From contig DATIIV010000033.1 in assembly GCA_035479295.1 (NCBI GenBank), forward strand, positions 2,901 through 66,900: a DNA stretch of 64,000 nucleotides, written 5' to 3'. Positions within the stretch are counted from its first letter, which is position 1, and each line of letters opens with the position of its first letter. The stretch is from Candidatus Saccharimonadia bacterium. GTDB taxonomy: Bacteria > Patescibacteriota > Saccharimonadia > UBA4664. A model generated the notes under the pieces. The model was not told where the DNA came from. It ran no database searches and worked only from the letters and a program-made list of their open reading frames with translations. The position numbers were made by a program, and so were the translations under genes. Shown one piece after another: positions 3,607-38,689 of this stretch.

Positions 3607-3636
3607 TGTGCTGTGCCTCCAACCATTTGTTCTTTT

Positions 3637-4305: not shown

Positions 4306-4519
4306 ACCATGCAGTGTAGCAGAGGCTGCCGGCTGCGACCATCTCAGCGCTTCCTCAGCTGGTCTTGGTACGATCTGCTCGTCGATTCTTGCCCAACCAC
4401 TCCCTTAAGGTGAGCTTCGGCATAACACCATCGGCCCCTCGCGGGGCCGATTTTTTGGTTGAGCCAGCATATTATTGACAAATCCGGTCATTAGATAGAG
4501 CATAAGAAGTAAGCAATTT

Positions 4520-4966: not shown

Positions 4967-4985
4967 TGGCCAGCGCTCTCCGGCG

Positions 4986-6056: not shown

Positions 6057-6315
6057 ACCCGTTTGATCGCAGGATTGGCTTCATCTACAATGGGGCCAAC
6101 GAATGAAGCCTCGCAATAAATTACCTTTATACACGGTAGTGGTAGCGGCGGGCCGGGGATCGCGCATGGCGAGCGCGACTCCGAAGCTGATGGTATTTTG
6201 ACTCAACAATCTAACTTCTATGTAGACTCACTCTGACAGAATGTGACTCTGGGCAAAGGGTTGTAGGCTGCTTCGTGGCCTAGACAACCAGATTACCGTC
6301 CCTTACAATCCGGTC

Positions 6316-7392: not shown

Positions 7393-7419
7393 TTCTCTTC
7401 ATTTTGCTATAATCATGGC

Positions 7420-8208
7420 GTGCCAAAACCTATGCTGCACGCCATACCCGACCATGTACTGTCGGGCACGTTCAAAACCGCTTTTGTGTCTCGATCGGAA
7501 TCAAACTGGGTCGATCAAATCATCGAAAAGCTCAACTGTGACGGTCTTGCTACCTTTGATGGTGTGACCTCCACTGCAGAATTCCTTGAGTTTGCGGCCT
7601 GCTTTGGTGAGGTACGAGTCCATCCTCAGACGGACCAGCACGGCATAACAACTATGACTACAAGCGATAAATACCACATTCAGAGTGGTATTGTAGAGAC
7701 GCCGTTCGCAAAAGAGCAATTGTTCCATACGGATGGGTCAAAGATGGTTGATCCTCCTGGAGTGGTGGCAATTTATTGCGAGGCTCCCGATCCCAACACT
7801 CCGAGAGTCAACGTTTTTGCCCATGGCGGAACTTTGTTTGAGAGGCTGGTCGAGGAGAATCCCAATCTGCTGGAGGTGCTTCGACAGCCGATCGATTTTG
7901 GTGAATTCAGAAGCCCTGTCTTTACAACCCGTGAGGATGGTCTCACTAGCGTCCGTTTTAGGCAGGCGCCTGAACCTCCCAAGATGGATCTTCCCGATGA
8001 AGTTCGCTTTGCGGTTGATGCCAGACTGCGGCAGCCTGATCTGCTACTTGGCGTTACGCTATCTCAGGGGCAAGGTGTTATATTTAATAACCACATTATG
8101 CTCCACGGCCTAGGGAGGTCATTCGGCATAGGTCGGGTTGCAAAGCGGGTTCAGCTTACAACTGGCCCGGATTCGCCAATAAAGGCGGGGTTTAGGCTAC
8201 AAGCCTAG
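7420..8208 (+). CDS. TauD/TfdA-like Fe(II)/2-oxoglutarate-dependent dioxygenase (putative)
   Basis: HTDGS (HxD) followed downstream by HIMLHG, compatible with a 2-His-1-carboxylate facial triad. Low GC. Start is GTG at 7420 or ATG at 7432, immediately after an extended -10 (TGcTATAAT, 7405-7413). Confidence 0.5.
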   Translation: MPKPMLHAIPDHVLSGTFKTAFVSRSESNWVDQIIEKLNCDGLATFDGVTSTAEFLEFAACFGEVRVHPQTDQHGITTMTTSDKYHIQSGIVETPFAKEQLFHTDGSKMVDPPGVVAIYCEAPDPNTPRVNVFAHGGTLFERLVEENPNLLEVLRQPIDFGEFRSPVFTTREDGLTSVRFRQAPEPPKMDLPDEVRFAVDARLRQPDLLLGVTLSQGQGVIFNNHIMLHGLGRSFGIGRVAKRVQLTTGPDSPIKAGFRLQA

Positions 8209-8289
8209 AGCAAGCATGTGAATATAAGTTCTCGCCTACCCAGTAGGGGTGACCACTCAGAGCTTTGCCTTGAGCAGTGAGCTTCACAA

Positions 8290-8324
8290 GCGCTCCATGC
8301 CATCGGTATGGAGCGCCTTTTTTG
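8290..8324 (+). terminator. Rho-independent terminator after the TauD-like gene
   Basis: GCGCTCCAT-gccatcggt-ATGGAGCGC stem followed by TTTTTT. Confidence 0.5.
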
Positions 8325-8490
8325 GGCCCTGAGTGCCGGCAAAACTTGACCTCATGCCGGTTATGATTGATAAAATTATTGAACAAACGCCGGGCATACT
8401 TTATACTCGGTCACGGCGTGTACGCGCTGTGCCGCCACAAATGGCCCTTTCAGACTCAGACCATGTTCCCGAGGATAAGGGATTGATCTC

Positions 8491-9516
8491 GTGTCGACGA
8501 CGTCAACACTGGAACGCAACGAGTCGAGTGTAGGTTCCTTAGGAGACGCCCCGGCTGTGCCGGCAGTCGAACTCCCGCAAGTCTCCCGCCGAAAGCTGCT
8601 GAAGAGCCTGTTGGCCCCGGAAGCGCTCTTGGCTACCGATGTTGCTCTGCATGAGCAGGCCAACCGCCCGCCCCGCGTTGACCAGTTTCGCCTCTGGGCG
8701 GTGGCTGCCAAGCAGCGCTTTAGCCCCTGGATGGCACTGGTGGCCGGCTTAGCGGCGCTAGTGTCATGTAGTGCTCAGGTGATCCGCTGGGTCTTGGTGA
8801 GCACTCAGGGCGTCACGCTGGGCTGGCCGCTGACCGCGCTGATCTTTGCTGCCATCAAGTATGGCCGGCAGAGGCCTCATCGCACAAGCGGCGGGGCCAC
8901 CTACCGCCGTCAGGTGCGGCTCAGCCTTGCCCTGTCGTTCGAGCTTATATGCACGAACGCGGTGTTGCTAGGGGTGTTGCTGTGCTACGGCGCCAACCTC
9001 TTCAACGGGATATTCTACATCACGATTGGCCTGTGGGTCTTCGGTGCGCTTAGGACAGTGAGGCGCTGGAACCGAGAAACGAGTAATCACCGGTTCGTCC
9101 GCGCCGGCATTCTGGTGAATATTGTGCCGATGTATCTGCAGGCGGCCAACTACCTCATCGTCGGGGTTGGCGGTATGCCGCTGTGGAATCTGGCGGTGCT
9201 CGAAGCACTCACGCTGGGCGCCTTTGTCATCTCCACCTGGCCCTTCGATGACGGCCGCCGCGGCCGTCTGAACCGAAAAAGGGCATTCCAGGCCGGCAGT
9301 TACGTCACCTTTAGGCTGACGCGCCACGAGTTGGTGGCTCAGAGTACGCTCGGCCTTTGCGGCCTGATCAGCTACTTCTGGCTGCCGGGCGGCCATCTGG
9401 ATGTGCCATGGAACATTTTGGAGGGTTTGATGCTGCACGCCTGGGACAGCCTGAACGCCTATCTGTCCTCGTTCCATCTCCATTTTCTGGGGGATCCCGC
9501 ACAAGTTATCGCCTAG
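8491..9516 (+). CDS. Hypothetical polytopic membrane protein
   Basis: 341-aa ORF with multiple hydrophobic helices. No recognised motif. Confidence 0.45.
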   Translation: MSTTSTLERNESSVGSLGDAPAVPAVELPQVSRRKLLKSLLAPEALLATDVALHEQANRPPRVDQFRLWAVAAKQRFSPWMALVAGLAALVSCSAQVIRWVLVSTQGVTLGWPLTALIFAAIKYGRQRPHRTSGGATYRRQVRLSLALSFELICTNAVLLGVLLCYGANLFNGIFYITIGLWVFGALRTVRRWNRETSNHRFVRAGILVNIVPMYLQAANYLIVGVGGMPLWNLAVLEALTLGAFVISTWPFDDGRRGRLNRKRAFQAGSYVTFRLTRHELVAQSTLGLCGLISYFWLPGGHLDVPWNILEGLMLHAWDSLNAYLSSFHLHFLGDPAQVIA

Positions 9517-9605
9517 GAGGCACTGGGGACTGGGGAACATTTTGCACCACTCTAACGTGGCTCCACGGGCCGGCGGACAACGATGTCTGCCGGCCCGCAA
9601 CCGTT

Positions 9606-10145
9606 TTAATCGCGCAAAACGGTGATGTGGCCCGTCTCGGCGATCTGAATAAGTTTGGAGGCGCGAGTGCTGGTGCGGCCGCGGCGATAAAAATCGACCG
9701 CGTCGCCAAAGTAGGCCCGCGCCTCGGCCAGCGTGGCAGCCGGCGGCAGCCCCTCAGGGTTGGCGCTTGGCGCGATCAGCGGGCCGGCCTGCCGCAAAAA
9801 CCGCCGTAGCGCCGGCTTGCCCGGCAGCCGAAACGCCAGGCTGCGTGTGCCACGGTGCAGGTACGCCAGGTCGGCCCGCGGGCAGGGCAGAATCACGCTG
9901 ACCGGCCCCGGCCAGTAGGCGCTTAGCTGCTGCCGGAGCTCGGCCGTCGGCTCGATGCCGAAGCCCGCCAGATCCTCGTAGCGGCCAATCAGGATGATGC
10001 ACGGCTTGCTCGGCCGGCGGTGCTTGAGCTGATAGACCCGCTCTACGGTCGCGCGGTCCAGCGCCGGCGCTACCACGCCGTACAACGTGTCGGTGGCCAA
10101 GACGCCCACGCCACCCGCCCGCAAAATACCGATTACCCGTTTCAT
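9606..10145 (-). CDS. tsaC: L-threonylcarbamoyladenylate synthase, TsaC/YrdC family
   Basis: VLATDTLYGVVAPALD...VYQLKHRRPSKPCIILI matches the YrdC fold signature. Confidence 0.8.
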   Translation of the reverse strand: MKRVIGILRAGGVGVLATDTLYGVVAPALDRATVERVYQLKHRRPSKPCIILIGRYEDLAGFGIEPTAELRQQLSAYWPGPVSVILPCPRADLAYLHRGTRSLAFRLPGKPALRRFLRQAGPLIAPSANPEGLPPAATLAEARAYFGDAVDFYRRGRTSTRASKLIQIAETGHITVLRD

Positions 10146-10400
10146 TTATTGCGCCAGGTCTTTCTTAATAATCTCTTTGCGAAGCCACATCCGATCAGCC
10201 CTAGCTACGTTGCCATCGAACGTTACGCCCAATAACTCACTAATCCAGGCCCGCACCTTAGCCGGAATGCTCTCGTTCCACGGCGCCGCACTAGCGGCCT
10301 GAGCCGACTGGCCTTGCCGTTGCAGTAGCTCCGCGTAGGCAATGATGCCGGCGTAGGCGTCTATATCTAAATAACGCGAGCCCGAGGTAACGATGCGCAT
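10146..10400 (-). CDS. Small hypothetical protein, possible DHH-phosphoesterase N-terminal fragment
   Basis: IVTSGSRYLDIDAYAGIIAYAELL resembles the DHH motif I/II region (DxD...AYG) but the ORF is only 84 aa. It abuts the tsaC start. Confidence 0.25.
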   Translation of the reverse strand: MRIVTSGSRYLDIDAYAGIIAYAELLQRQGQSAQAASAAPWNESIPAKVRAWISELLGVTFDGNVARADRMWLRKEIIKKDLAQ

Positions 10401-10521
10401 GGTGCTTTCTGACCGTGATTAATGTCGGGCACAATAGTACCATTGGTTACGAGTTTTTGCACGTGCACACATAGGAATACATTGAGCAGTAGGCCCGACG
10501 TGCCGTATAGTTAATACACTT

Positions 10522-11358
10522 ATGCTTAAACCACGACCAGCCTGGCACATTGACGCAAAATGGGTCTGCGCCATCTTGCTCATGGGTTTGCTGGCGGTGA
10601 CATTGCCGGTGGTGGCGCTCTTTCGGTTGACGCAGATGGGGCCGGCCACCACCATCATTGCCTATACGCTGGTGGGGCTCACCAGCCCGCAGGGGATCGA
10701 TAGTCCGGCCGGCCTCGAAGAGCTGACGGCCAAGGTAGCGGCGACGGGTAGCGAGACGTTAACGGTGAGTGGTGTGGCGGTGACGATCACCCGAGCCGAC
10801 GTCCAAAAGCTGTCGCCGCGGCAGTTGCGGCTCAAAGTGTTTGGCGCCTTTGCAGCCGAGTTTTACCGGCTGGGCGCCAAAGGCGTGGCCGCGAGCCACC
10901 AGGCCAGCCCGGCCGACGCCACCAAGCTCCAGAGCGATGCGACCGCGCTCAGCTTCTTTACCAGCCAGAACCACGCGCGGATTGGCCTCGTGGCGGCGCT
11001 GCTAGTGGGCCTTAGCGCGCTGCTGACCGGGCTGCTAGTGCTCTTTAGTTACCGGGTGGGTCGGCTCGTGAGCCCCGGCCTGGTGCTTGGCTGGATGGGC
11101 GCGTCCGGGTTGGCGCTGGCGGCCGTAGCTACACACCTGGGCGCTCTACCGGCCGGCACCGCTCGTCCCGCCAGCGCCGACGGCCCCCTGGCGCTGGCCA
11201 GCGGCTTTGCTAACTATTTGGCGCCATTGGTGGTGCCGTACCTGGCTAGTACCTACCTGGCAGTGCTCGGCGCCGGGTTATTCCTGCTGGTATTGGCCGT
11301 GCTCGTTCGCCTGGTGATAGCAGTTAAGCGCCGCCGCTCGCCTCATTTACCCGCCTAA
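10522..11358 (+). CDS. Hypothetical membrane protein
   Basis: 278-aa ORF with several TM segments. No motif. Confidence 0.45.
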   Translation: MLKPRPAWHIDAKWVCAILLMGLLAVTLPVVALFRLTQMGPATTIIAYTLVGLTSPQGIDSPAGLEELTAKVAATGSETLTVSGVAVTITRADVQKLSPRQLRLKVFGAFAAEFYRLGAKGVAASHQASPADATKLQSDATALSFFTSQNHARIGLVAALLVGLSALLTGLLVLFSYRVGRLVSPGLVLGWMGASGLALAAVATHLGALPAGTARPASADGPLALASGFANYLAPLVVPYLASTYLAVLGAGLFLLVLAVLVRLVIAVKRRRSPHLPA

Positions 11359-11421
11359 GCTCATAATTTTTTATAATATCCTCCACATTACTAGCCACGC
11401 GCCTCCCGCTATAGTTGGGTC

Positions 11422-12324
11422 ATGGAATCGATTGGGCACGAAGCAAAGACCGTTCTGGTCACCGGTGGCGCCGGCCATGTGGGATCGCACGTCATCGAGC
11501 AGCTGCTGGCCCAGTATCCGGCCTATCGCGTCATCTCGCTCGACAACTACTCCAATGGCCATACCCTCAATCATATTGCCGGCGCCGAGTATCGGGCCGG
11601 CGACACCAAGAACATCGCTCGCGAGGTGCCGGAGCAGCCCGACATCGTCTACCACCTGGGCGAGTACGCTCGCATTGCGCCATCGTTTACTGAACCCGAG
11701 CGCGTCTACGAGCTCAATGTGCAGGGCACTTTTGCCGTCGCCGAGTTCTGTCGGCAGCGGGGCGCCAAGCTAGTTTATGCCGCCTCGAGCACCAAATTTG
11801 CCATTGAGGGCGATGGCCGCCACCAAAATCCGTACTCGTTTACCAAGGCCACCAATGTCGATCTGATCAACGATTATGGCCGTTGGTACAACCTGCCCTA
11901 TGCCATTTGCTATTTTTATAATGCTTATGGTCCGCGCGAAAAGGGCACCGGCCAGTACGCCACCCTCATCGCCAAGTTTGAGCAGAAATATCTGCGCGGC
12001 GAGCCGTTTACAGTGGTGCGTCCAGGCACGCAAAAGCGCAACTTTACCTATGTAGGTGATCTGGCGCGCGGCCTCATTCTAACGGGCGAGCGTGGCCAGG
12101 GTGATGGCTATGCGCTTGGTAATACCAACGGATTTTCCATTGTAGAAATAGCCGAAGCCTTTGGTGGGCCCATCGAGTACATCGACGGCTACCCAGGCCG
12201 GGCCGAGTCGGGCCAGGCGCCCACCAAGGCGCGCCAGGAGCTGGGCTGGGATACCACGGTGGATATTCTGGACTACATTCGCGACTTTGTGCGGGAGCAC
12301 CCGCGGGCGGGGATTAACCGCTGA
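11422..12324 (+). CDS. NAD-dependent epimerase/dehydratase (extended SDR)
   Basis: VLVTGGAGHVGSHVIEQLL Rossmann motif plus Y...K catalytic region YSFTKA. Confidence 0.8.
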   Translation: MESIGHEAKTVLVTGGAGHVGSHVIEQLLAQYPAYRVISLDNYSNGHTLNHIAGAEYRAGDTKNIAREVPEQPDIVYHLGEYARIAPSFTEPERVYELNVQGTFAVAEFCRQRGAKLVYAASSTKFAIEGDGRHQNPYSFTKATNVDLINDYGRWYNLPYAICYFYNAYGPREKGTGQYATLIAKFEQKYLRGEPFTVVRPGTQKRNFTYVGDLARGLILTGERGQGDGYALGNTNGFSIVEIAEAFGGPIEYIDGYPGRAESGQAPTKARQELGWDTTVDILDYIRDFVREHPRAGINR

Positions 12325-12865
12325 TCGCTATCAGTACAATGCTTAGGTGCGATAGATAGATGTAAGCCAGTTCGTAAATAATAAAGCGAGGTCGGTTTAC
12401 CATCATAGCAACAAAGAGGAGGGCCATGACTACCGCGAGTGTATACTCGGCCCAGCCCACCAGGCCGCTCTGTATCTGGGCAAAGAGAACAGCCAGCACG
12501 AACATAGCCACGCCCATGAGATAGGCAAAGATGCTGTGCGCTCGGCGAATCCAGCCATAAGTGGCCGGAAGTATACCCAGTACTATCTCGCTGAGGCACA
12601 TAACGAGAGCAGCGGCGCTAATCCCCGCCGAGGTGTGGCTGCGTGGCGCTACATAGAGCAGGAGCGTTAGCCCAAATAAAACTGAGCAGGGAAACAGAAT
12701 GAGCCGGAACACCAGCAGTCCTCGTGGTGATGCCGCGGCCATGTCGCTGAGTGGCCGTGGCTGAGCTGAATCATGCAGCCTCAGCGCGAGCCAAGTTAGG
12801 CCGGTCATCGAGACGATAGTGGCCAAAACGGCCGGATAGATCCAAATGGATGAGCTGAGCCTCAA
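12314..12865 (-). CDS. Hypothetical 6-TM membrane protein
   Basis: Hydrophobic 183-aa ORF, tightly packed with the two downstream minus-strand genes. Confidence 0.4.
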   Translation of the reverse strand: MRLSSSIWIYPAVLATIVSMTGLTWLALRLHDSAQPRPLSDMAAASPRGLLVFRLILFPCSVLFGLTLLLYVAPRSHTSAGISAAALVMCLSEIVLGILPATYGWIRRAHSIFAYLMGVAMFVLAVLFAQIQSGLVGWAEYTLAVVMALLFVAMMVNRPRFIIYELAYIYLSHLSIVLIAISG

Positions 12866-12866
12866 T

Positions 12867-13400
12867 TTACCGCCGCCGTTGATAGACCAGCAGACTTACT
12901 ATCGTCAGCGCCGTTACTGCAAAGCCAATTGCGGCCGCCATCACCACTGGAGAGGTTGACGGTGCAGCGCCCCGGCCCACGCGCACATCGTAAGCCAGGC
13001 TAAACGGCTGAAACTCTCCTGCCTGCCGCGGCTTGCTCTGGAGTGTTATATCGTAGACTACCGGCCGCGGAAAGGTGTAGACGACCTCAAGCATTGACGT
13101 TCGCGGAGCCTCCTGGGCCGTAATTGGCCGGTCCATCAGGGTGCGATCGCCGTCCTTAATAACGAGGCGGCAGTCGCAGGCGGCGGCGGTAAACTTATGC
13201 TCAGAATCGGTTAGGCTAAACCACAGTCCTGTTTTCTGCCCGGCCGTCGGCTCGTCATCTGGGTTAATGTGGAGCAGCGCCTTAATGGCGCCATCGGCCT
13301 CCAGCGTGTGAGCCGATGCCACCAGCGGCCAGCCAGCACCCCAAATTATGGCTATGAGGAGCCCGAGAATGGCAAATTGACGTAGCTTCATGTCTGGCAT
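12867..13400 (-). CDS. Secreted, C-terminally anchored hypothetical protein, possible CopC/YcnI-like metal-binding fold
   Basis: Signal peptide ...LVASA|HTLEADG leaves an N-terminal His after predicted cleavage, and there is a C-terminal TM helix. The assignment is weak. Confidence 0.35.
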   Translation of the reverse strand: MPDMKLRQFAILGLLIAIIWGAGWPLVASAHTLEADGAIKALLHINPDDEPTAGQKTGLWFSLTDSEHKFTAAACDCRLVIKDGDRTLMDRPITAQEAPRTSMLEVVYTFPRPVVYDITLQSKPRQAGEFQPFSLAYDVRVGRGAAPSTSPVVMAAAIGFAVTALTIVSLLVYQRRR

Positions 13401-13424
13401 TGTAGCAAGCGGGCCAGAATGTCG

Positions 13425-13736
13425 CTAACGAATGACCAGCAGAGCCACAAACGTCAGCATGAGCAGCACCAAGAACGATGCCATGGTGTAGCCCAGCAAC
13501 TCCAGCGCCGCTCGCTTCTTGCCGTCGATGTACCACATGAGTGGTTGGCCAAATACCAAAATGCCCATTAACGCCGCTGAAAAGACCAGCAGCATAAGTG
13601 CCGCGACCGGTGCTAGCGCCGTGTCCTTCTGCCCAAAGATGCGCGAGGCGTTCGACATAAAGAGCCCCACCGCCGTAATGTAGGCGAATGCCGCCAAGGC
13701 ATTGGTGGCTGCTCGTTTGACGATAGTTGATTTCAT
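13425..13736 (-). CDS. Small 3-TM membrane protein
   Basis: 103-aa hydrophobic ORF. Confidence 0.4.
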   Translation of the reverse strand: MKSTIVKRAATNALAAFAYITAVGLFMSNASRIFGQKDTALAPVAALMLLVFSAALMGILVFGQPLMWYIDGKKRAALELLGYTMASFLVLLMLTFVALLVIR

Positions 13737-13837
13737 GGGCTTATTATAGCGGCAAAGCGATAAAGAGACTATAAGGAAGTCCTTGCGTTCGATAAAATAT
13801 AACCGAAACTAACCACCCACCAAGGACAACAACCTCC

Positions 13838-14272
13838 ATGCCAACGATCAACCCCTACATCAACTTCAACGGCAATGCCGAAGAAGCCTTTAATTTTTAC
13901 AGATCGGTGTTCGGGGGAGAGTTCGAAACGATTATACGCTTCAAAGATCTCAAAAGCCCGGAGCTTCCTATAGCCGAAAACGAGGCCAATAACATTATGC
14001 GCATTACGTTGCCTATCGGAGAAAACACGCTCATAGCCAATGATGTGCCCGAGAGTATGGGGCCAGTCAATGAGCAAGAGAATCGGTCTAAGATATCGGT
14101 TAGCGCGCAAAGCCGGGCCGAAGCCGACAAAATCTTCGCGGGGCTTACGCCGGGCGGAACGATTGAAATGCCGCTGAGCGATAGTCCGTGGGGTACTTAT
14201 TTTGGAATGTTTAGGGACAAATTTGGTATTGAGTGGACGGTGGAATTCGAAGGAGACAAGAAAGAAGCCTGA
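13838..14272 (+). CDS. VOC-family (glyoxalase/PhnB-like) protein
   Basis: INPYINFNGNAEEAFNFY...GIEW matches the PhnB-like VOC fold. About 45% GC. Confidence 0.75.
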   Translation: MPTINPYINFNGNAEEAFNFYRSVFGGEFETIIRFKDLKSPELPIAENEANNIMRITLPIGENTLIANDVPESMGPVNEQENRSKISVSAQSRAEADKIFAGLTPGGTIEMPLSDSPWGTYFGMFRDKFGIEWTVEFEGDKKEA

Positions 14273-14299
14273 TTGAGGCTTCTTTTCGTTGGATAGTTC

Positions 14300-14330
14300 C
14301 TGGCTCCGCATAGTGAAGGACGTTAGAACC
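14300..14330. repeat. Direct repeat copy A, tRNA-3'-end-like att-type sequence
   Basis: ctggctccgcatagtgaaggacgttagaacc matches the 16972-17002 copy at 28 of 31 positions. It shares ttcctggctccg with the 3' end of tRNA-Asn at 17438-17449. Confidence 0.5.
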
Positions 14331-14449
14331 GTTGTGTCGTCTTTAGCGCTTAACATAAGCAAAATATTTATTTGTTTACATTCAACTTGCCAATGTAAAC
14401 AAAACAGGCTATTCTGTTTACGTTAACTAACGAGATGTAAACAAACCGT

Positions 14450-15610
14450 ATGAGTGTCATAGGCAACTACCGAAAGCAGCCGAAAGGCTTTAACGCTTTT
14501 ATTCCTAATTCATTTCCCCCGACGGAAGAGATTGCGATATCAAGGGAATTGTCTCAGAAACATACTGAGGCCGTTAGGCTCGTGGGCAAGCTAGACGGTA
14601 TTACCGAATTGCTCCCAGACAAAGATTATTTCTTGGAAATGTTTGTTCGCAAAGATGCATCTTCTTCAAGTCAGATAGAGGGAACAAAAGCCACGATGAT
14701 GGACGCCATTGAAGCGGCCAACATCGAGCGTGGATCAGATCTTCCCGATGACGTTGATGATATTCTTCATTACATTAATGCATTAAATTTCGGGCTCAAG
14801 CGCGCAAAGGAGCTCCCATTAAGCCTGCGGCTTATTCAGGAGCTGCATGAAAAACTCATGACCGACGCGCGAAGCACACATAACGCTTATCCGGGAGAAT
14901 TCCGCCGTAGCCAAAACTGGATTGGTGGAACAAGACCAGATAACGCCCGATTTGTGCCGCCTCCGGTTCATGAAATGAAGCAAGCGCTAGGCGAGCTTGA
15001 GAACTTCGTGTATGGAGAAGACAACTACCCTCCACTCATCAAGGCGGGACTGATTCACGCTCAATTTGAGACTATCCACCCTTTTGCAGATGGTAACGGG
15101 AGAACGGGGCGTATGCTGGTCACTATGTATTTATGGCAGCTTAAGCTACTTGAGATGCCGCTCCTATATCTTTCGGCTTACTTCAAGCAGCACCAGGACG
15201 CGTATTACGAGCGGCTCAATGGCTACCATTCGAAGGACGGGCATATCGATAGGTGGTTAGATTTTTTCATGGACGGGCTGATTGACACTGCCAAGTCGGC
15301 TATTACGACGTGCCAGAAAATCACCGCTTTGCGGGAGGAAGATATGCGTAAGGTGCAGCAACTCGGACGCGTATCGGCCCCGACCACAATCGAAGTGCTC
15401 AGAAACCTTTACAGGTTGCCCACCGTGGGCGTCGCAGATATTGCGGAGTGGACGGGCTTCACGCGCCCTGGAGCCTACAAGATGATAGATCGATTGGTAA
15501 AGATGGAAATACTTAGCCCCATCAAGGAACCGGGTTCTTATGGGCAGAAGTATACATATCGCAGATATGTCGAACTGTTTACTGATGAATCAAACGAAAA
15601 AGAGGCTTGA
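14450..15610 (+). CDS. Fic family protein (class II: internal inhibitory motif plus FIC core)
   Basis: FIC motif HPFADGNGRTGR. Upstream SSQIEG fits the [ST]xxxE[GN] inhibitory helix. Low GC. Confidence 0.85.
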   Translation: MSVIGNYRKQPKGFNAFIPNSFPPTEEIAISRELSQKHTEAVRLVGKLDGITELLPDKDYFLEMFVRKDASSSSQIEGTKATMMDAIEAANIERGSDLPDDVDDILHYINALNFGLKRAKELPLSLRLIQELHEKLMTDARSTHNAYPGEFRRSQNWIGGTRPDNARFVPPPVHEMKQALGELENFVYGEDNYPPLIKAGLIHAQFETIHPFADGNGRTGRMLVTMYLWQLKLLEMPLLYLSAYFKQHQDAYYERLNGYHSKDGHIDRWLDFFMDGLIDTAKSAITTCQKITALREEDMRKVQQLGRVSAPTTIEVLRNLYRLPTVGVADIAEWTGFTRPGAYKMIDRLVKMEILSPIKEPGSYGQKYTYRRYVELFTDESNEKEA

Positions 15611-15756
15611 AAAAGCCTCTTTTTAAACATAAGTTCTTTGGCTCCCCCTAGCCAACTTGTTCCCGAACCGAGAGGTTGAGCTGGAAAGCGACCTGTCCGC
15701 AACGGAAAAGCTAATTTCCAGCCTCGGCCTGGCTCTAAGCTGATAAAATCAATCCT

Positions 15757-16257
15757 ATGAAAACTATCTGCTCACTCGTAATTTCTGCCGACGGCCTCAT
15801 CGCCTATCCCGATGGCCGAAGCGTCTCATCCGACTACAACTGGCAAGTCTTCCAGCGTGAGGCTCACGACCACAACAACTTTATCGTCGGTCGGCGCACT
15901 TTTGAGCTGGCTACAGATGCGCTGGCCCAAGTTAAGTGCGACCACAAAATCATCGTTTCATCTCGCGCCGATCTGACTATCCCGCCAGGCTTCACTGTAG
16001 CCGCCACACCCCAGGCTGCCCTTGGCCATCTCAAAGACAAGGTCGAAGCCACCTACCTCGTCGGCGGTGCGGGCATCAATACTAGCTTTGCGGCTGCTGG
16101 TCTCATTGATGAGCTGGTCCTAACGGTCGAGCCAAAAGTGATTGGAGCAGGGGAGCATATGTTTTCGAGCGCCTTGAATGATGTAAAGCTGGAATTGCTA
16201 GAGTCTGAGCCTTTGCCAGACAATCGCATCCGCCTAAGCTATAGGATTGCCAAATGA
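15757..16257 (+). CDS. Dihydrofolate reductase family protein (RibD C-terminal domain-like)
   Basis: MKTICSLVISADGLIAYPDG...FIVGRRTF matches the YwjB/RibD_C pattern. Confidence 0.7.
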   Translation: MKTICSLVISADGLIAYPDGRSVSSDYNWQVFQREAHDHNNFIVGRRTFELATDALAQVKCDHKIIVSSRADLTIPPGFTVAATPQAALGHLKDKVEATYLVGGAGINTSFAAAGLIDELVLTVEPKVIGAGEHMFSSALNDVKLELLESEPLPDNRIRLSYRIAK

Positions 16258-16850
16258 CCAAATACGTCGTAAATTCTGGCGGCATCTTTAATGGCGGCGA
16301 CATGGGCCGCGCCTTTTTCAACGAGGTCATCAAAGGCTTAGGCTCAAGCCCCATCATCCTCATGTGCTTTTTCGCTAGCCCACGCGAAGAGTGGCAAGAG
16401 AGGTTTCCTAAATACACCGATGGCTTTAAGGCTGTTCTCTCGGATAGGGTTGACCCAACGTTTGAATTAGCCTTGCCCGAAAAGTTCGCGGCGCAAGTAG
16501 CCGCGTGTGATGCCCTCTACATGCACGGCGGCGACAACGACCGCATTATGACTGCATTGCGCCAATACGACCTGCCAAAAACGTGGGACAACAAGGTTGT
16601 AGCCACCAATTCGGCCAGCTCAATCGCTTTAGCGGCCCACTCATGGACCTGCGACGAGCGCAAATGTGTTAATGGCTTGGGCATCTTACCTATCAGGTTC
16701 ATCGCCCATTACCAATCAAATTATGGGGCTGACGACCCACGCGGGCCGATCGACTGGCAAAAAGGCTACGATGAATTGGCCGCCTATGGCGGTCAAAGCC
16801 TCCCCATCTACGCGCTCAAAGAAGGCGAGCTTAAAGTATTTGAGGGTTAG
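16254..16850 (+). CDS. Peptidase E-like / class I glutamine amidotransferase-like protein (S51 family, putative)
   Basis: LYMHGGDNDRIM...ATNSASSIALAAH nucleophile-elbow-like region. Translationally coupled to the upstream gene through an ATGA overlap. Confidence 0.5.
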   Translation: MTKYVVNSGGIFNGGDMGRAFFNEVIKGLGSSPIILMCFFASPREEWQERFPKYTDGFKAVLSDRVDPTFELALPEKFAAQVAACDALYMHGGDNDRIMTALRQYDLPKTWDNKVVATNSASSIALAAHSWTCDERKCVNGLGILPIRFIAHYQSNYGADDPRGPIDWQKGYDELAAYGGQSLPIYALKEGELKVFEG

Positions 16851-16971
16851 CCACTCGACTAGAGTGAGCTAGCGCGACACGGCTCGTTTTATAGCCTCAA
16901 AGACGACGCTGAAATAAGTGTTGCCATGAGGCACATATCGATTTGATGGCTTCTTGCGTAAAAAATGATAA

Positions 16972-17002
16972 CTGGCTCCGGATCGTGGAGGACGTTAGAA
17001 CC
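16972..17002. repeat. Direct repeat copy B, tRNA-3'-end-like att-type sequence
   Basis: ctggctccggatcgtggaggacgttagaacc, paired with 14300-14330. Confidence 0.5.
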
Positions 17003-17034
17003 ACCGGAAAACGATCGTTGATACCCCCTCATGG

Positions 17035-17388
17035 CTATATAAGCATGTAGGAATATGCCAACAGCGTTACCGTGCCACCTAGGAGCGCTGCCAGGCCAAG
17101 AATTACGAGGGTCACGAACTTATCATCACGCATAGTTTTCTTGCTCGTTAGCACCAGCGGCAATGCCCCCAGGAGCGCAAATCCCCAGTAAACGACTTGC
17201 GCCAGGCCATCGCTACTATGATAGGGGGCAACTGCGCTACTGCAGTGATTGCCGCAATCGAGGTGACCTATGTCGGCGCCCCAAATGATCAAAAAGAAAG
17301 CCAGAGCGCCCACCGCCAAACAGCAGGCAAACAAAAAACCGAGGGATAAGAGGATGCCGAGAACAGAGGGTTTCTGAGGCTCTTTCAT
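17035..17388 (-). CDS. Hypothetical small membrane protein (low GC)
   Basis: The longest ORF would overlap the tRNA, so the start is placed at the internal ATG at 17388 (MKEPQKPSV...). About 45% GC. Confidence 0.4.
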   Translation of the reverse strand: MKEPQKPSVLGILLSLGFLFACCLAVGALAFFLIIWGADIGHLDCGNHCSSAVAPYHSSDGLAQVVYWGFALLGALPLVLTSKKTMRDDKFVTLVILGLAALLGGTVTLLAYSYMLI

Positions 17389-17443
17389 TATGGTTAAGTA
17401 TAGCAAAAAAGAGACCTTAAGCCTCTTTTTGATAAATAATTCC

Positions 17444-17518
17444 TGGCTCCGGAGGTCGGGCTCGAACCGACGACCCAACGGTTAACAGCCGTTTGCTCTA
17501 CCACTGAGCTACTCCGGA
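17444..17518 (-). tRNA. tRNA-Asn (anticodon GTT)
   Basis: Reverse complement folds as a cloverleaf: acceptor TCCGGAG / CTCCGGA, D-arm TAGCTCAGTGGTAGAGCA, anticodon loop CTGTTAA, T-arm GTCGGTTCGAGCCCGAC, discriminator G, encoded CCA. Confidence 0.85.
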
Positions 17519-17537
17519 TCACCTTTTGTACCAGCCG

Positions 17538-17637: not shown

Positions 17638-18171
17638 ATGTCAAAGCGGTTGTTGTTAATTTTGGCCATTGTATTAGTGGCGGGCGGATTGTATGTGCGC
17701 GCACAGAACCAACGCCAGGCGCAGAAGCTGGCCGATGTGCTGGTGGCGGCCGATAAAGCCGCTCAGGATACCAAGGTGCCGCTGCAGAGCCTACGTGATT
17801 ACGTGGCGGCGCACATGGGCGCTCGGACTACGGTGACGCTGCAGGCGGCCTACGACCGAGCAGTGGCCGCGGCCAAGGCCCAGGCCAACGCGCAGGCGGC
17901 CAACGATCAGGTGTATGCCGACGCTCAGCGAGCCTGCATGAGCAAGGCCGACTCATTGGTGCAGGCGCACTGCAATCAGCAGTATTTGGCCAACCACCTG
18001 GTGGCCCTGCCGCCGGCCGGCCCTGTAGCGGCGCCCAAGCTGGCCGATTATCGGTACAATTTGCGCGCACCACTGTGGACGCCTGACTTGGCTGGCGCGC
18101 TGCTGCTGGGCGCCGCCGTGGCGCTGGCTTGGCTTGGCCTTAAGCTGCTGCGGCTGAGGCGCCGACGATGA
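17638..18171 (+). CDS. Hypothetical N-terminally anchored protein
   Basis: MSKRLLLILAIVLVAGGLYV TM anchor then an Ala/Gln-rich region. An upstream in-frame extension to 17551 is possible. Confidence 0.4.
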   Translation: MSKRLLLILAIVLVAGGLYVRAQNQRQAQKLADVLVAADKAAQDTKVPLQSLRDYVAAHMGARTTVTLQAAYDRAVAAAKAQANAQAANDQVYADAQRACMSKADSLVQAHCNQQYLANHLVALPPAGPVAAPKLADYRYNLRAPLWTPDLAGALLLGAAVALAWLGLKLLRLRRRR

Positions 18172-19195: not shown

Positions 19196-20998
19196 TTAAG
19201 CAGCTTGATTGAGATGCGGTCGAGTCCGATCAAGGACGGCCATAACCCGGCGCCGAGTCTGCAGCACGATATCCTGAGCGGCCTGCTGAAACTGGCGGCC
19301 GCGATCTTCGCCTTGCTCGGCCGAGCGCAGAAGGTCGGCCAGGGTTAGGAAGTCGGGGCTTAGTGCGAGACCCTTGCCTGCCGAAAACCGGGCGGCCCAC
19401 GGGTCGTCGGAGGGGCGAGTCATTTGGTGGCTGGCAAATAAATCGTTCATTTGGGCGGAATATTGCTGCCAGGCGGCCGCTAGCTCGGTCTTTGACGGGT
19501 CCGCCGCCTCTTTGGGATGCTCCAAGAGCTGAGTGTGTGCTTTAAGGGCGCTAAAGAGAGCACTGGCGCTGCGCATCGTACGGTTAAGCCCTGATAGGCC
19601 TTTAGCCTCCAGCGTTCGTAACTCCACCGCGGTGGAAGCATCTCCCTGGATGTCTTCACTGCTTCGTTCCATAATGCCGCCGTTACCCTTGCAGGCCCAG
19701 CCGCCCTCAGGAGCGGTTGATGCTTGTTCCAGCCGTTCGGCACTACAGCTCCAACCGGTAGCCTCCAGCCCGTGCAATAAGGTATACACCTCATTGCCGG
19801 CCGGGCCGTTAGTACTGACTTCGGCGCCCGTAAGATGCAGCGGATACGAATACTCATTGCGGAGAAGGTCGGCCTGCATCAGGGCCTGGACTTCGCGCGT
19901 GTGGGTGAGGTAGCTGTAAGCCGGGCGAGGGGCGAATTCCCACATGGCGTCGCTACCCGCTGGTATACCCAGTTGCTCGCTGTGGCGATAATTGGCTTGT
20001 CGCTGGTAGGCTCGAGCCTCTCGCTCCTCACTAGAAAGGTTCAAGTTGTCATCAACTAATAATGACTCTTCTTCGATCTCTACTTCTATGCCTAGCGTGG
20101 TGCTATAAGGCGAGGGATTGTCCTCTTGATAGGCGGCAATAATTAGTCGCTCTTTAAACTGCTCAGGAGTGTGCGACGATAAGGGGCGCTCCATCAGAAC
20201 CCAGAGATTCTGGAGCGTCTCCGAACGCTTACCGGAGCCCTGGGAACTAACCATAAGATCAGGTTTTCGGCGAAGGCTCTGCCCAAAGTCTGGGTCGTTC
20301 ACGCTGTCATTAAAGAATTCTTGGGCATAGGCCAGAGCCAGGACTTCGGGACGAGATATCGTCCGGAAGTAGTTGAGAGCTTCTGCCCGCTGGCCGCGGT
20401 GACGAACGCCTTTAACATACTCATCGAGCCAGCCCTCTACGTGCTGCTGCCATTGTTCCCGGCTCGCCTCCGAGGTGGCTCGGTGCTCAATGGCCGAGGC
20501 TACGAACAGCGCATCGTTCATCTTGTAACTGCGGTACTCTGGGTCTGGTTCGGTGGCGATAGCATGGGACGCATAGGCAGCGAGGTGGGGTAGTAGCTGG
20601 TCGTCACCCAATCGAGCTAGGGCGACACGCAATGGTTGTTCCATTTTGCCCTGTTGAACAACATAATCAGCAATCTCGGGCACATTTTCCCTCGTAGCAG
20701 CGGCGTTTACCAGACTGGCACTAAGCTCCGGTATAAGCCTGCCTTGGCTAAGTTCTTGGAGTACGGCATGGGCGGCTGGAGCTCCTTCTTGTCGAAACTG
20801 GCGTAGTAAGGCTACGGCACGTGTCTTCTCGGCGTCACTGGGCTTCAGCTTTAATTGGATAGCTGCAAACTCGTGAGTCAGGGCCGTCAGATCCTCCTGG
20901 TTCGTCTCACTGGTGTTGGCTGTGAGGTCGCGGTAGGCGTCGGCGCCCTGAAAGTCCGGCTTGTCACCATGATGGGGCGAGTGGTGCTCGTAGTTCAT
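19196..20998 (-). CDS. Large hypothetical protein (600 aa)
   Basis: Long GC3-rich ORF with no recognised domain. Confidence 0.45.
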   Translation of the reverse strand: MNYEHHSPHHGDKPDFQGADAYRDLTANTSETNQEDLTALTHEFAAIQLKLKPSDAEKTRAVALLRQFRQEGAPAAHAVLQELSQGRLIPELSASLVNAAATRENVPEIADYVVQQGKMEQPLRVALARLGDDQLLPHLAAYASHAIATEPDPEYRSYKMNDALFVASAIEHRATSEASREQWQQHVEGWLDEYVKGVRHRGQRAEALNYFRTISRPEVLALAYAQEFFNDSVNDPDFGQSLRRKPDLMVSSQGSGKRSETLQNLWVLMERPLSSHTPEQFKERLIIAAYQEDNPSPYSTTLGIEVEIEEESLLVDDNLNLSSEEREARAYQRQANYRHSEQLGIPAGSDAMWEFAPRPAYSYLTHTREVQALMQADLLRNEYSYPLHLTGAEVSTNGPAGNEVYTLLHGLEATGWSCSAERLEQASTAPEGGWACKGNGGIMERSSEDIQGDASTAVELRTLEAKGLSGLNRTMRSASALFSALKAHTQLLEHPKEAADPSKTELAAAWQQYSAQMNDLFASHQMTRPSDDPWAARFSAGKGLALSPDFLTLADLLRSAEQGEDRGRQFQQAAQDIVLQTRRRVMAVLDRTRPHLNQAA

Positions 20999-38612: not shown

Positions 38613-38689
<77 letters not shown>

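What the first reader, a model, noticed from the sequence alone, without database searches (positions are those of the whole stretch)
13760..17520. Low-GC genomic island abutting the 3' end of tRNA-Asn, carrying a class II Fic protein and accessory enzymes
GC falls from about 65% to about 45% over roughly 3.7 kb. The island encodes a VOC/PhnB-like protein, a Fic protein (HPFADGNGRTGR with an upstream [ST]xxxEG inhibitory motif), a DHFR-family protein, a peptidase-E-like protein and a small membrane protein. It ends exactly at tRNA-Asn, which is a classic island integration geometry. No integrase is present, suggesting a decayed or satellite-type element.
Basis: partly seen in the sequence, partly recalled or inferred. 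Interest (0 to 1): 0.6.

Follow-up and report, generated by a model that had tools for sequence, protein, structure and literature searches.

The report
Recombinase-scarred gene-cassette stack at tRNA-Asn
Next to a tRNA-Asn gene in an uncultured Saccharibacteria (TM7) genome lies a stack of four small gene cassettes, one of them a Fic-type candidate anti-phage gene, and the cassette boundaries are scars left by a tRNA-targeting serine recombinase that is no longer present.

Summary
The island is real, but the GC figures were overstated. Region 13760-17520 is 49.8% GC against 59.1% for the rest of the window, and it is the lowest 3.7-kb stretch. The gene calls hold; the S51 call is weak. The 3' end of tRNA-Asn(GTT) (17444-17518, minus strand) does face the island.

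It is not one element. It is a stack of cassettes: VOC | Fic | RibD_C + S51-like | small membrane protein. The boundaries at 14300 and 16972, and a degenerate one at 15639, share one design. Each has a terminator hairpin, an AT-rich spacer and TGGCTCC(G), which is the tRNA 3' end including CCA. Then come the first codons (WLRIVEDVRT...) of the displaced C-terminal tail of a large serine recombinase (LSR). Intact LSRs carry this tail. In integrated copies the ORF runs into the tRNA instead.

Related contigs carry the same VOC and Fic cassettes at tRNA-Asn with different neighbours, and the breakpoints fall at the core. No recombinase lies in the 64 kb.

The Fic protein matches the SoFic anti-phage model over its full length (E 2.6e-107).

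This is an SCCmec-like composite island in a candidate-phyla-radiation bacterium. I found no prior description. Interest is moderate.

The parts
13818..14299 (+). VOC cassette: VOC/PhnB-like gene 13838-14272, a bidirectional terminator hairpin at about 14261-14285, and the spacer up to the core
   Evidence: Pfam Glyoxalase and 3-dmu-9_3-mt. The hairpin folds at -16 kcal/mol. Window 13818-14331 is 82% identical at nucleotide level, and the VOC protein 86% identical, to L060 569-1090, where the left neighbour differs. No recognisable junction lies to its left, so the left edge is approximate.
14300..14334 (+). Junction J1: core CTGGCTCCG (copy of the tRNA-Asn 3' end) plus orphan LSR tail codons WLRIVKDVRTV
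   Evidence: Direct repeats D2 and D3. An independent HMM built only from metagenome junctions hits 14289-14334 at E 1.4e-12. The junction is chimeric relative to L060 J1060 (left arm) and J1700 (right arm).
14371..14445 (+). Four TGTTTACA/TGTAAACA inverted-repeat boxes overlapping a promoter-like site upstream of Fic; a probable operator
   Evidence: Inverted repeat I1; promoter-like site 14387-14415; conserved in L001, L060 and L002. The operator function is inferred.
14450..15610 (+). SoFic-type class II Fic protein (Fic_N + Fic + C-terminal winged-helix-like domain), 386 aa
   Evidence: PADLOC SoFic E 2.6e-107, covering model positions 5-359 of 361. Pfam Fic_N and Fic. PDB SoFic structures 3EQX and 3ZCN match at E about 1e-26 over the full length.
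15597..15670 (+). Fic terminator hairpin + spacer AAACATAAGTTCTT + degenerate junction J2 (TTGGCTCCCCCTAG...CCCGAACC)
   Evidence: The hairpin folds at -16.4 kcal/mol. It is homologous to L001 5888-5961 and L060 2974-3023, which also close the Fic cassette. The independent HMM does not support it (E 7.4), so it rests on positional homology.
15757..16850 (+). Two-gene cassette: RibD_C/DHFR-like reductase (15757-16257) and S51-like protein (16254-16850), overlapping by 4 nt
   Evidence: Pfam RibD_C E 2.4e-18 and DHFR_1 E 2.5e-6; S51 weak. S51-like homologues are cassette cargo in L030, L049 and L060.
16972..17004 (+). Junction J3: core CTGGCTCCGG plus orphan LSR tail codons WLRIVEDVRTT
   Evidence: Repeat D2. 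The independent HMM hits 16969-17004 at E 2.5e-11.
17035..17388 (-). Small predicted membrane protein (about 117 aa from ATG 17388); the cassette nearest the tRNA
   Evidence: ORF listing; no family match. Membrane character is judged from the hydrophobic sequence only.
17404..17443 (.). Terminator hairpin + spacer GATAAATAATTCC directly downstream of the tRNA 3' end
   Evidence: Fold of -10.5 kcal/mol on the minus strand. Repeat D3 pairs it with 14278-14308.
17444..17518 (-). tRNA-Asn(GTT), intact, CCA encoded; the attB-type target. A promoter-like TTGACC-17-TATAAT lies at 17566-17538.
   Evidence: ARAGORN; Rfam tRNA 69.6 bits; promoter scan 11 of 12 matches.

Best explanation
Window 13.8-17.44 kb is an integrase-less composite island. 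Four small cassettes are stacked against the 3' end of tRNA-Asn(GTT) in a Candidatus Saccharimonadia (TM7/Patescibacteria) genome: VOC; SoFic-type Fic; RibD_C + S51-like; small membrane protein.

The stack was built by site-specific recombination catalysed by a family of large serine recombinases (LSRs) that is abundant in candidate-phyla-radiation bacteria. In this family the attP core lies inside the last codons of the recombinase gene itself: TGG CTC CGN = Trp-Leu-Arg. That sequence is also the reverse complement of the tRNA 3' end (acceptor strand, discriminator, CCA).

Integration regenerates the tRNA. It makes the recombinase ORF run into the antisense tRNA. It strands the native tail of about 30 codons (WLR[IV]VEDVRT..YI.IP..) at the far end of the inserted DNA, next to the former tRNA-downstream terminator. 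Each cassette boundary in the window is such a scar: terminator + spacer + TGGCTCC(G) + tail remnant.

Shown: the scars and their coding origin; the LSR family and its two kinds of C-terminus; re-assortment of the same cassettes between genomes with breakpoints at the core; absence of any serine recombinase in the 64 kb.

Inferred: the recombinase-less cassettes moved as units, through circular intermediates and a recombinase supplied in trans, as for psi-SCC or CIME elements. The array here is now fixed unless an LSR exists elsewhere in the genome. The Fic protein acts as an auto-inhibited AMP-transferase toxin giving abortive-infection phage defence. It may be autoregulated through its C-terminal DNA-binding domain and the upstream TGTTTACA boxes.
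For: Repeats and junctions in the window
- Repeats lie at 14300, 16972 and the tRNA.
- An HMM built only from 33 metagenome junctions hits the window at 14289-14334 (E 1.4e-12) and 16969-17004 (E 2.5e-11); no other hit reaches E 0.1.

Coding origin of the right arm
- The right arms translate to WLR[IV]VEDVRT, with further conserved positions that were not imposed by the search pattern.
- L041/L063 carry a 530-aa ORF with Resolvase, Recombinase and Zn_ribbon_recom domains. It ends in this tail and has no tRNA nearby.
- In L001 the homologous ORF ends ..NNNWLRRSDSNRRPIG* inside tRNA-Asn.
- In L054 an internally deleted LSR abuts tRNA-Asn, with the orphan tail 5.9 kb away.
- L007 has an LSR C-terminal remnant beside tRNA-Asn.

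The LSR family
- 1520 homologues at E<1e-30, with source names from Paceibacterota, Patescibacteria and related groups.
- After WL[RP] their C-termini are native tails, tRNA-antisense '..DSN..P..' tails, or an immediate stop.

Cassette modularity
- The Fic cassette, from junction through operator and Fic to the terminator and core, is shared by the window (14278-15651), L001 (4577-5942, 77% nt) and L060 (1692-3023, 74% nt). Neighbours differ on both sides.
- The VOC cassette is shared with L060.
- Window J1 equals the left arm of L060 J1060 plus the right arm of L060 J1700. That is a precise indel of the AAA_33 cassette.

Generality
- Tandem junctions 0.6-2.7 kb apart, and tRNA-Asn downstream of them, recur in metagenome loci L034, L037, L039, L040, L044, L048, L052, L054 and L057.
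- Cargo there includes NUDIX, a Gp49 toxin, NgoFVII endonuclease and HNH.

Other points
- No serine recombinase in the window.
- SoFic assignment. SoFic was reported as a defence gene in bioRxiv 10.1101/2022.05.11.491447 and as a toxic AMPylase in PMC12249575.
- Fic homologues sit in or beside restriction-modification operons.
Against: - No circular cassette intermediate, empty site or recombination activity has been observed. Trans-mobilisation is an inference from comparative structure.
- Homologous recombination between the junction repeats of about 45-75 nt could produce the cassette deletions.
- J2 (15639) is degenerate and not supported by the independent model.
- No junction is recognisable left of VOC, so the left edge is soft.
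- Left-flank synteny with relatives could not be established, so no true empty site was seen.
- Every LSR found at a tRNA-Asn array is damaged: L001 frameshift (which could be an assembly error), L054 deletion, L007 remnant.
- Cassette divergence between arrays (74-82% nt) is only slightly less than core-gene divergence (67-73% nt). Fic GC3 tracks host GC. Long vertical residence of VOC and Fic is therefore possible.
- The orphan tails show no overall three-base periodicity beyond the first 10 codons. That fits decay, but it weakens the coding argument for individual scars.
- Anti-phage function of this Fic is untested, and no AS1-like antitoxin ORF was seen.
Confidence: 0.72

Rival explanations
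1. Fossil array inherited vertically. The cassettes were captured long ago in an ancestor of this Saccharimonadia group. Differences between genomes reflect differential loss by ordinary deletion or homologous recombination between the repeated junctions. Nothing here has been mobile for a long time, and low GC is a property of these genes rather than a sign of acquisition.
For: - VOC then Fic occur in the same order at the same tRNA in L060, and Fic in L001.
- Cassette nucleotide identity is 74-82%, against 67-73% for core genes.
- Fic GC3 follows each host.
- There is no LSR in the window, and the LSRs at other tRNA-Asn arrays are damaged.
Against: - The Fic protein is 87-91% identical between arrays. 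The adjacent conserved membrane protein is at most 67% identical to any homologue, and the RRM protein 72-81%.
- L001 has a clearly more divergent tRNA-Asn and 12 points lower GC, yet carries the closest Fic.
- Cassette order and neighbours differ on both sides in three genomes.
- Five family-level relatives lack these cassettes at the site.
- This rival still needs the LSR mechanism for the original capture, so it differs from the best explanation only in timing.
Confidence: 0.2
2. One ordinary decayed island or prophage remnant. The internal 'junctions' are chance resemblances to the tRNA end or are merely similar terminators.
For: The short core alone is not significant in the window: 8 matches with up to 1 mismatch against 4.2 expected. 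J2 is degenerate.
Against: - The extended junctions score E 1e-12 and 2.5e-11 with a model built from unrelated metagenome loci, and no other hit in the 64 kb reaches E 0.1.
- The same motif is the C-terminal coding sequence of a verified LSR.
- Homology blocks with L001 and L060 start and stop at these junctions.
- There were no viral-contig matches, and the island has no phage genes.
Confidence: 0.03
3. The repeated unit is a functional RNA or regulatory element, for example a tRNA-like 3' processing signal or a shared terminator module placed after each gene, rather than a recombination scar.
For: Each unit contains a strong terminator hairpin and a copy of the tRNA 3' end with CCA. The units sit between convergent or tandem genes.
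Against: - Rfam finds nothing except the tRNA.
- The conserved part to the right of the core is conserved as protein sequence and is contiguous with an LSR ORF in L041/L063.
- The hairpin sequences differ from copy to copy; only the core and tail are conserved.
- The units occur only in arrays on the 3' side of tRNA-Asn in the loci examined.
Confidence: 0.05

Closest known systems
SCCmec / composite SCC islands of staphylococci (Ccr large serine recombinases at the 3' end of rlmH/orfX)
   Same: A large serine recombinase integrates DNA at the 3' end of a conserved gene without inactivating it. Successive elements stack in tandem, separated by short direct repeats of the integration site. Many units in the stack lack a recombinase (psi-SCC) and are thought to depend on one supplied in trans. 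Cargo is accessory. (Comparison from established knowledge, not tested here.)
   Different: The target is a tRNA 3' end, not a protein gene. The attP core lies inside the recombinase's own last codons, so integration swaps its C-terminal tail and leaves a coding remnant as the scar. Units here are very small (0.5-1.3 kb, often one gene). The host is a candidate-phyla-radiation bacterium. There is no sequence relationship to Ccr beyond the LSR domain set.
CIME / accretion-mobilisation model (ICESt1-type elements of Streptococcus thermophilus)
   Same: Integrase-less DNA segments flanked by att-type repeats sit at an integration hot spot. Arrays grow by tandem site-specific accretion, and units can be lost or moved by recombination between att sites.
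   Different: Those systems use tyrosine integrases and conjugative partners. Here the recombinase is a serine recombinase and no conjugation genes are seen.
Integrons (IntI, attI, attC cassettes)
   Same: They form arrays of mostly single-gene, promoter-poor cassettes, each carrying its own recombination site. The same cassette is found in different arrays and positions.
   Different: There is no IntI tyrosine recombinase, no attI/Pc platform and no imperfect-palindrome attC folded as single-stranded DNA. Insertion is at a tRNA 3' end. Cassettes here have their own terminators and, for Fic, their own promoter and operator.
SSV-type archaeal integrases (attP inside the integrase gene; tRNA targets)
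   Same: attP lies within the recombinase gene, the target is a tRNA gene, and integration partitions the gene and leaves fragments as footprints of past integrations. (Established knowledge: She et al. 2001, recalled from memory.)
   Different: Those are tyrosine recombinases split into large N and C parts and thereby inactivated. Here only the last roughly 30 codons of a serine recombinase are exchanged, and the ORF stays open through the tRNA antisense strand.
SoFic (Shewanella oneidensis Fic; single-gene anti-phage system)
   Same: The window protein has the same full-length architecture, the Fic motif and the N-terminal inhibitory SxxxEG helix. It matches the PADLOC SoFic model at E 2.6e-107 and the PDB SoFic structures over their full length.
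   Different: It is only about 30% identical to the solved SoFic proteins. It scores below the NCBIfam equivalog cut-off (145.8 against 550 bits). No AS1-like downstream small gene was seen. Defence activity is untested, and no phage-host system exists for this organism.

Membership tests
tRNA-associated genomic island | Lies directly at the 3' end of a tRNA gene that remains intact | tested here: met
   tRNA-Asn lies at 17444-17518 on the minus strand and is intact (ARAGORN and Rfam, 69.6 bits). The island ends at 17443.
tRNA-associated genomic island | A direct repeat of the tRNA 3' end at the distal boundary | tested here: met
   CTGGCTCCG(G) occurs at 14300 and 16972, with a degenerate copy at 15639, and the flanking terminator and spacer are similar.
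tRNA-associated genomic island | Composition differs from the host genome | tested here: met
   49.8% against 59.1% GC, the lowest 3.76-kb stretch in the window. GC3 is 54-63% against 62-79%. The deviation is moderate.
tRNA-associated genomic island | Encodes its own integrase | tested here: not met
   No recombinase domain occurs in the island ORFs. An LSR profile finds nothing in the 64 kb. An LSR, damaged in each case, is present in the related arrays L001 and L054, and as a C-terminal remnant in L007.
tRNA-associated genomic island | Variable presence among related genomes / an empty site | tested here: inconclusive
   Content on the 3' side of tRNA-Asn differs in L007, L009, L014, L015, L019, L060 and L001. 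No clean empty site with conserved left flank was found.
Large-serine-recombinase composite island (SCC-like) | Unit boundaries are recombination-site copies attributable to an LSR | tested here: met
   The right arm of each junction is the C-terminal coding tail of a verified LSR (Resolvase + Recombinase + Zn_ribbon_recom).
Large-serine-recombinase composite island (SCC-like) | Units re-assort as modules between genomes | tested here: met
   Fic and VOC cassettes appear in the window, L001 and L060 with different neighbours. There is a precise cassette indel at the core.
Large-serine-recombinase composite island (SCC-like) | Demonstrated excision or integration by the recombinase | not testable with these tools
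   This needs a recombination assay or read-level evidence of circles and empty junctions.
Integron | IntI tyrosine recombinase with attI and Pc next to the array | tested here: not met
   No such gene lies in the island or its flanks. The array abuts a tRNA instead.
Integron | attC sites (imperfect palindromes with conserved R/L boxes) at cassette ends | tested here: not met
   Junctions consist of a variable terminator hairpin, a tRNA-end core and a coding-tail remnant.
SoFic-type class II Fic AMP-transferase (anti-phage) | Fic active-site motif HxFx(D/E)GNGRxxR | tested here: met
   HPFADGNGRTGR at residues 210-221.
SoFic-type class II Fic AMP-transferase (anti-phage) | Inhibitory (S/T)xxxE(G/N) motif N-terminal to the Fic core (class II) | tested here: met
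   SSQIEG at residues 73-78 within the Fic_N domain.
SoFic-type class II Fic AMP-transferase (anti-phage) | Full-length match to the SoFic family model or structures | tested here: met
   PADLOC SoFic E 2.6e-107 over model positions 5-359 of 361. PDB 3EQX, 3ZCN and 9TCL match at E 1e-26 to 1e-28 over residues 45-383. The NCBIfam equivalog score of 145.8 is below the 550 cut-off, so it is a family member, not an equivalog.
SoFic-type class II Fic AMP-transferase (anti-phage) | Protects against phage / toxic AMPylation activity | not testable with these tools
   Only context is available: homologues lie in or beside type I, IIG and III restriction-modification operons.

The most novel reading that the evidence does not exclude
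Candidate-phyla-radiation bacteria may possess an integron-like gene-capture system built on a serine recombinase instead of a tyrosine recombinase. A widespread LSR family, whose attP core is its own Trp-Leu-Arg codons (the mirror of the tRNA ...CCA end), would insert single-gene cassettes at tRNA 3' ends and shuffle them. Each cassette would carry a portable site (terminator + tRNA-end core + tail remnant) and be mobilised in trans. The exchange of the recombinase's C-terminal tail on integration might act as a built-in directionality switch. The window would be one such array that has lost its recombinase.
Probability: 0.35. Interest if true: 0.8.

Novelty: new variant of a known kind. Interest (0 to 1): 0.58.

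Why it matters
Almost nothing is known about how the tiny, host-dependent genomes of Saccharibacteria and other candidate-phyla-radiation bacteria gain and exchange accessory and defence genes. This locus and its relatives point to a concrete mechanism that can be tested.

The mechanism is a tRNA-targeting serine recombinase whose own gene end is the attachment site. It leaves readable scars and builds stacks of one- or two-gene cassettes that recur in different combinations across genomes.

The scars give a simple sequence signature for mapping such arrays in metagenomes: terminator + TGGCTCC + WLRxVEDVRT codons.

The recombinases have compact, well-defined attP and attB sites (a tRNA end). 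That makes them candidates for genome-engineering tools and for genetic manipulation of these organisms.

The Fic cassette adds a SoFic-type candidate defence gene to the known repertoire of this phylum.

Tried and rejected
1. Empty-site test by left-flank synteny. Window proteins from 997 to 13736 have no homologues to the left of tRNA-Asn in any fetched relative. The left boundary therefore rests on the VOC homology block and on composition only.
2. Viral origin. Neither the tRNA 3' half nor the junction pattern occurs in IMG/VR contigs, and the island holds no phage genes.
3. Known RNA family for the repeat. Rfam finds only the tRNA.
4. tRNA-fragment reading. The junction's right arm does not fold as a T-arm; it is coding sequence of the LSR tail.
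5. Recombinase elsewhere in the window. tblastn with two LSRs and an HMM of 60 family members found nothing. Tyrosine integrases outside the island were not searched systematically.
6. Significance of the short core alone. It is not significant; only the extended junction is.
7. Three-base periodicity across all orphan tails beyond codon 10. None was seen overall, which fits decay of stranded tails.
8. Integron membership was rejected: no IntI, attI or attC.
9. AS1-like antitoxin downstream of Fic. No convincing small ORF lies between 15611 and 15756. A dedicated search for ORFs under 50 aa was not run, so this is a provisional negative.
10. Literature. Five searches combining Saccharibacteria or CPR with serine recombinase, tRNA-Asn or genomic island found no description of this system. 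The library is incomplete, so prior description cannot be excluded.

Full report
**Observation**

The window is 58.5% GC. The flagged region 13760-17520 is 49.8%, the lowest of all 3.76-kb stretches (sliding mean 58.5%, sd 2.4). Local 400-nt minima fall near 42%. GC3 of the island genes is 54-63%, against 62-79% for neighbouring genes.

ARAGORN and Rfam place an intact tRNA-Asn(GTT) at 17444-17518 on the minus strand. Its 3' end therefore faces the island. A near-consensus promoter lies just upstream at 17566-17538.

The gene calls hold:
- VOC/PhnB-like, 13838-14272.
- Fic (Fic_N + Fic + a weak MarR-like C-terminal match), 14450-15610.
- RibD_C/DHFR-like, 15757-16257.
- An overlapping S51-like gene, 16254-16850. 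It scores below the Pfam threshold, but a small profile reaches a cyanophycinase-like S51 structure at E 3e-4.
- A small hydrophobic ORF at about 17035-17388 on the minus strand.

The Fic motif HPFADGNGRTGR (residues 210-221) and the inhibitory motif SSQIEG (73-78) are present.

**Organism**

The Fic and flanking proteins are identical to entries named Candidatus Saccharimonadia bacterium, from a MAG contig of 68,669 bp.

**Repeats**

Reading the intergenic DNA showed copies of the tRNA 3' end inside the island. The repeat finder paired 14300-14330 with 16972-17002 (31 nt, 90%). It also paired 14278-14308 with the region just downstream of the tRNA, 17421-17451.

Every copy has the same design:
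- a strong terminator hairpin (about -16 kcal/mol at 14261-14285 and 15597-15624);
- a spacer of about 12 nt that is AT-rich;
- (C/T)TGGCTCC, the reverse complement of the acceptor 3' strand, discriminator and CCA;
- about 25 nt ending in TAGAAC.

A more degenerate copy follows the Fic terminator at 15639.

**A relative with a recombinase**

The closest Fic homologue (91% aa) lies on contig L001. That contig also has tRNA-Asn on the minus strand. A large serine recombinase gene, preceded by an HTH_17 gene, ends inside this tRNA..NNNWLRRSDSNRRPIG*. L001 has junction copies at 1567, 3424, 4598 and 5929, so its Fic gene is bracketed by two of them.

Nucleotide homology between the window and L001 runs from 14278 to 15651. 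It starts at the junction and ends at the next one (77%).

**What the junction is**

I scanned metagenome contigs for TGGCTCCNNNTNGYGNNGGAYNNTARAAC and obtained 37 loci with GC of 34-56%.
- Several have two to four junctions 0.6-2.7 kb apart.
- Several have tRNA-Asn on the complementary strand to the right.
- The left arms are unrelated terminator hairpins.
- The right arms translate in one frame to W-L-R-[IV]-V-E-D-V-R-T. Further conservation (..I....YI.IP.L, then a stop after about 30 codons) extends beyond the positions fixed by the search pattern.

In L041 this frame is open for 506 codons upstream. The resulting 530-aa protein has Resolvase, Recombinase and Zn_ribbon_recom domains. On the longer copy L063 it sits mid-contig behind HTH_17, with no tRNA nearby. 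I read that as the unintegrated (attP) configuration.

Other loci fit the same picture. L054 has an internally deleted homologue abutting tRNA-Asn, and the orphan tail lies 5.9 kb to its left. L007 has a C-terminal remnant beside its tRNA-Asn.

A database search with the L041 protein returned 1520 homologues at E<1e-30, with source names such as Paceibacterota and Patescibacteria group. After the conserved WL[RP], their C-termini fall into three classes:
- native tails (..VEDVRT.., ..VDKFRTLNW..);
- tails such as RGQDSNLRPID, which are antisense translations of a tRNA T-arm (GAT TCG AAC = D S N);
- an immediate stop.

The family therefore targets tRNA 3' ends, with the attP core inside its own last codons. 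Each junction is the scar (attL-type) of one insertion.

**Independent test in the window**

An HMM built only from the metagenome junctions hits the 64-kb window at 14289-14334 (E 1.4e-12) and 16969-17004 (E 2.5e-11). No other hit reaches E 0.1. The copy at 15639 is not recovered (E 7.4). It rests on positional homology with L001 5929 and L060 3016.

**Cassettes behave as modules**

Contig L060 (Fic 87% aa) has a tRNA-Asn identical to the window's. Its array reads:

[S51-like][VOC, 86% aa] J1060 [AAA_33/zeta-like, minus strand] J1700 [Fic] J3016 [229-aa ORF, minus strand] tRNA-Asn

.

Window J1 has the left arm of L060 J1060 (the VOC terminator) and the right arm of L060 J1700 (the Fic leader). 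The two genomes therefore differ by exactly one cassette, with the breakpoint at the core.

Between Fic and the tRNA the three arrays carry different DNA:
- window: RibD_C + S51-like, then the membrane protein;
- L060: a 229-aa ORF;
- L001: a type IIG restriction-modification gene, other ORFs, HTH_17 and the LSR.

S51-like genes recur as cargo in L030, L049 and L060. The VOC homology block starts at 13818, and its left neighbour differs from that in L060. VOC therefore belongs to the variable array, although no junction survives on its left.

**Relatives and age**

The right flank (a gene of about 176 aa, a 200-aa membrane protein, an RRM protein, then the ATP synthase operon) is syntenic in family-level relatives. 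tRNA-Asn lies 1-7 kb upstream in L007, L009, L014, L015 and L019. What lies on its 3' side differs each time. L014 and L015 have their own junctions.

I could not find a clean empty site, because the window's left-flank genes have no counterparts in these loci.

The cassettes are not recent arrivals.
- Fic is 74-77% identical at nucleotide level between arrays, and VOC is 82%. Shared core genes are 67-73%.
- Fic GC3 tracks each host: 0.54 here, 0.42 in L001, 0.30 in L002.
- Against that, Fic protein identity is 87-91%. The neighbouring membrane protein is at most 67% identical to any homologue, and the RRM protein 72-81%.
- L001 has a clearly diverged tRNA-Asn and a 47% GC context.

Exchange between lineages is therefore likely but not proven.

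**The Fic protein**

It matches the PADLOC SoFic model end to end (E 2.6e-107). It also matches the solved SoFic structures over residues 45-383. It falls below the NCBIfam equivalog cut-off.

SoFic was reported as a single-gene anti-phage system (bioRxiv 10.1101/2022.05.11.491447). It was later described as a toxic AMPylase with a small downstream antitoxin in E. coli (PMC12249575). I saw no such small ORF here.

Homologues in other Saccharibacteria sit in or beside type I, IIG and III restriction-modification operons. This fits a defence role.

Four TGTTTACA/TGTAAACA boxes overlap a promoter-like site upstream of Fic. They are conserved in L001, L060 and L002. I infer autoregulation through the C-terminal DNA-binding domain.

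**Mechanism and what remains inferred**

Shown:
- the scars and their coding origin;
- the recombinase family and its tRNA-end targeting;
- modular re-assortment with breakpoints at the core;
- absence of any serine recombinase in this window.

Inferred:
- recombinase-less cassettes move as circles using an LSR supplied in trans;
- this array is now fixed;
- the tail exchange has a regulatory role;
- the Fic protein defends against phage.

The main rival is a fossil array that changes only by deletion. It differs from the best explanation in timing rather than in kind.

**Comparison and novelty**

The closest analogues are SCCmec-type composite islands and the CIME accretion model. There is a resemblance to integrons in cassette size and to SSV-type integrases in having attP inside the recombinase gene. 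The locus fails the defining tests for an integron.

Five literature searches found no description of this system in Saccharibacteria or other candidate-phyla-radiation bacteria. The library is incomplete.

I rate it a new variant of a known kind, with moderate interest. The window itself holds a recombinase-less example. The wider pattern it exposes is the more interesting part.

Noticed in passing
window 6316-8208: A second low-GC patch (49-51% GC, GC3 about 0.50). It encodes a UDP-GlcNAc 2-epimerase and a TauD-family dioxygenase and may be another acquired segment.
   Followed up: partly
window 19196-20998 (minus strand): A 600-aa ORF with no Pfam match. It lies between the RRM gene and the next conserved gene. 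It is absent at that position in syntenic relatives L007 and L009, and L015 has a 36% homologue. It looks like a lineage-specific insertion.
   Followed up: partly
window 36824-36899, 38613-38689, 40347-40421: ARAGORN calls a tRNA-Ile with anticodon TAT, which is uncommon in bacteria, plus two tRNA-Met(CAT) genes nearby. One of the latter could be the lysidine-type tRNA-Ile2.
   Followed up: no
window 14371-14445: Four TGTTTACA/TGTAAACA boxes arranged as inverted repeats overlap a promoter-like site upstream of Fic. They are conserved upstream of Fic homologues in L001, L060 and L002. They are a likely operator for the Fic C-terminal winged-helix domain.
   Followed up: partly
L002 10001-21149; L062 8347-17784; L004/L005/L006 10001-18525; L001 4743-8724: Fic homologues (68-91% identical) in other Saccharibacteria lie directly beside or inside restriction-modification operons. 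They are type I (in L062 between hsdM and hsdS), type III and type IIG. This is a defence-island context.
   Followed up: partly
L009 27-428 (minus strand), next to tRNA-Asn at 685-759: A different Fic-domain gene (35% identical to residues 124-256 of the window Fic) sits on the 3' side of tRNA-Asn at a contig end in a relative.
   Followed up: no
proteins P0185-P0304 (LSR family): After a conserved WL[RP], the C-termini of this candidate-phyla-radiation LSR family are native tails, antisense-tRNA tails containing D-S-N (the T-loop read backwards), or an immediate stop. Many different tRNA genes therefore appear to be targeted across the radiation, not only tRNA-Asn.
   Followed up: partly
L001 11172-12676; L054 9595-10358; L007 8208-8388: Every recombinase found at a tRNA-Asn array is damaged: a frameshift in L001 (which could be an assembly error), an internal deletion in L054 and a short remnant in L007. 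The intact copy with the native tail (L063/L041) has no tRNA next to it.
   Followed up: partly
window 17640-18171: The ORF just beyond the tRNA has unusual codon-position GC (GC2 0.72, GC3 0.47). It is Ala-rich with hydrophobic ends and has no family match. Positional equivalents of about 175 aa exist in relatives, but tblastn detected no similarity at E<=1e-4.
   Followed up: no
L019 3447-3497; L009 about 654-710; L044 698 and 2389: The spacer class AAACATAAGTTCTT closes the Fic cassette in the window and in L060. In L019 it lies directly against a genuine tRNA-Asn; L009 and L044 carry the related variant AAGCATAA(A/G)T(C/T)CTT, in L009 against its tRNA-Asn and in L044 at junctions inside the array. 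This fits the cassette's right end having once abutted the tRNA.
   Followed up: partly
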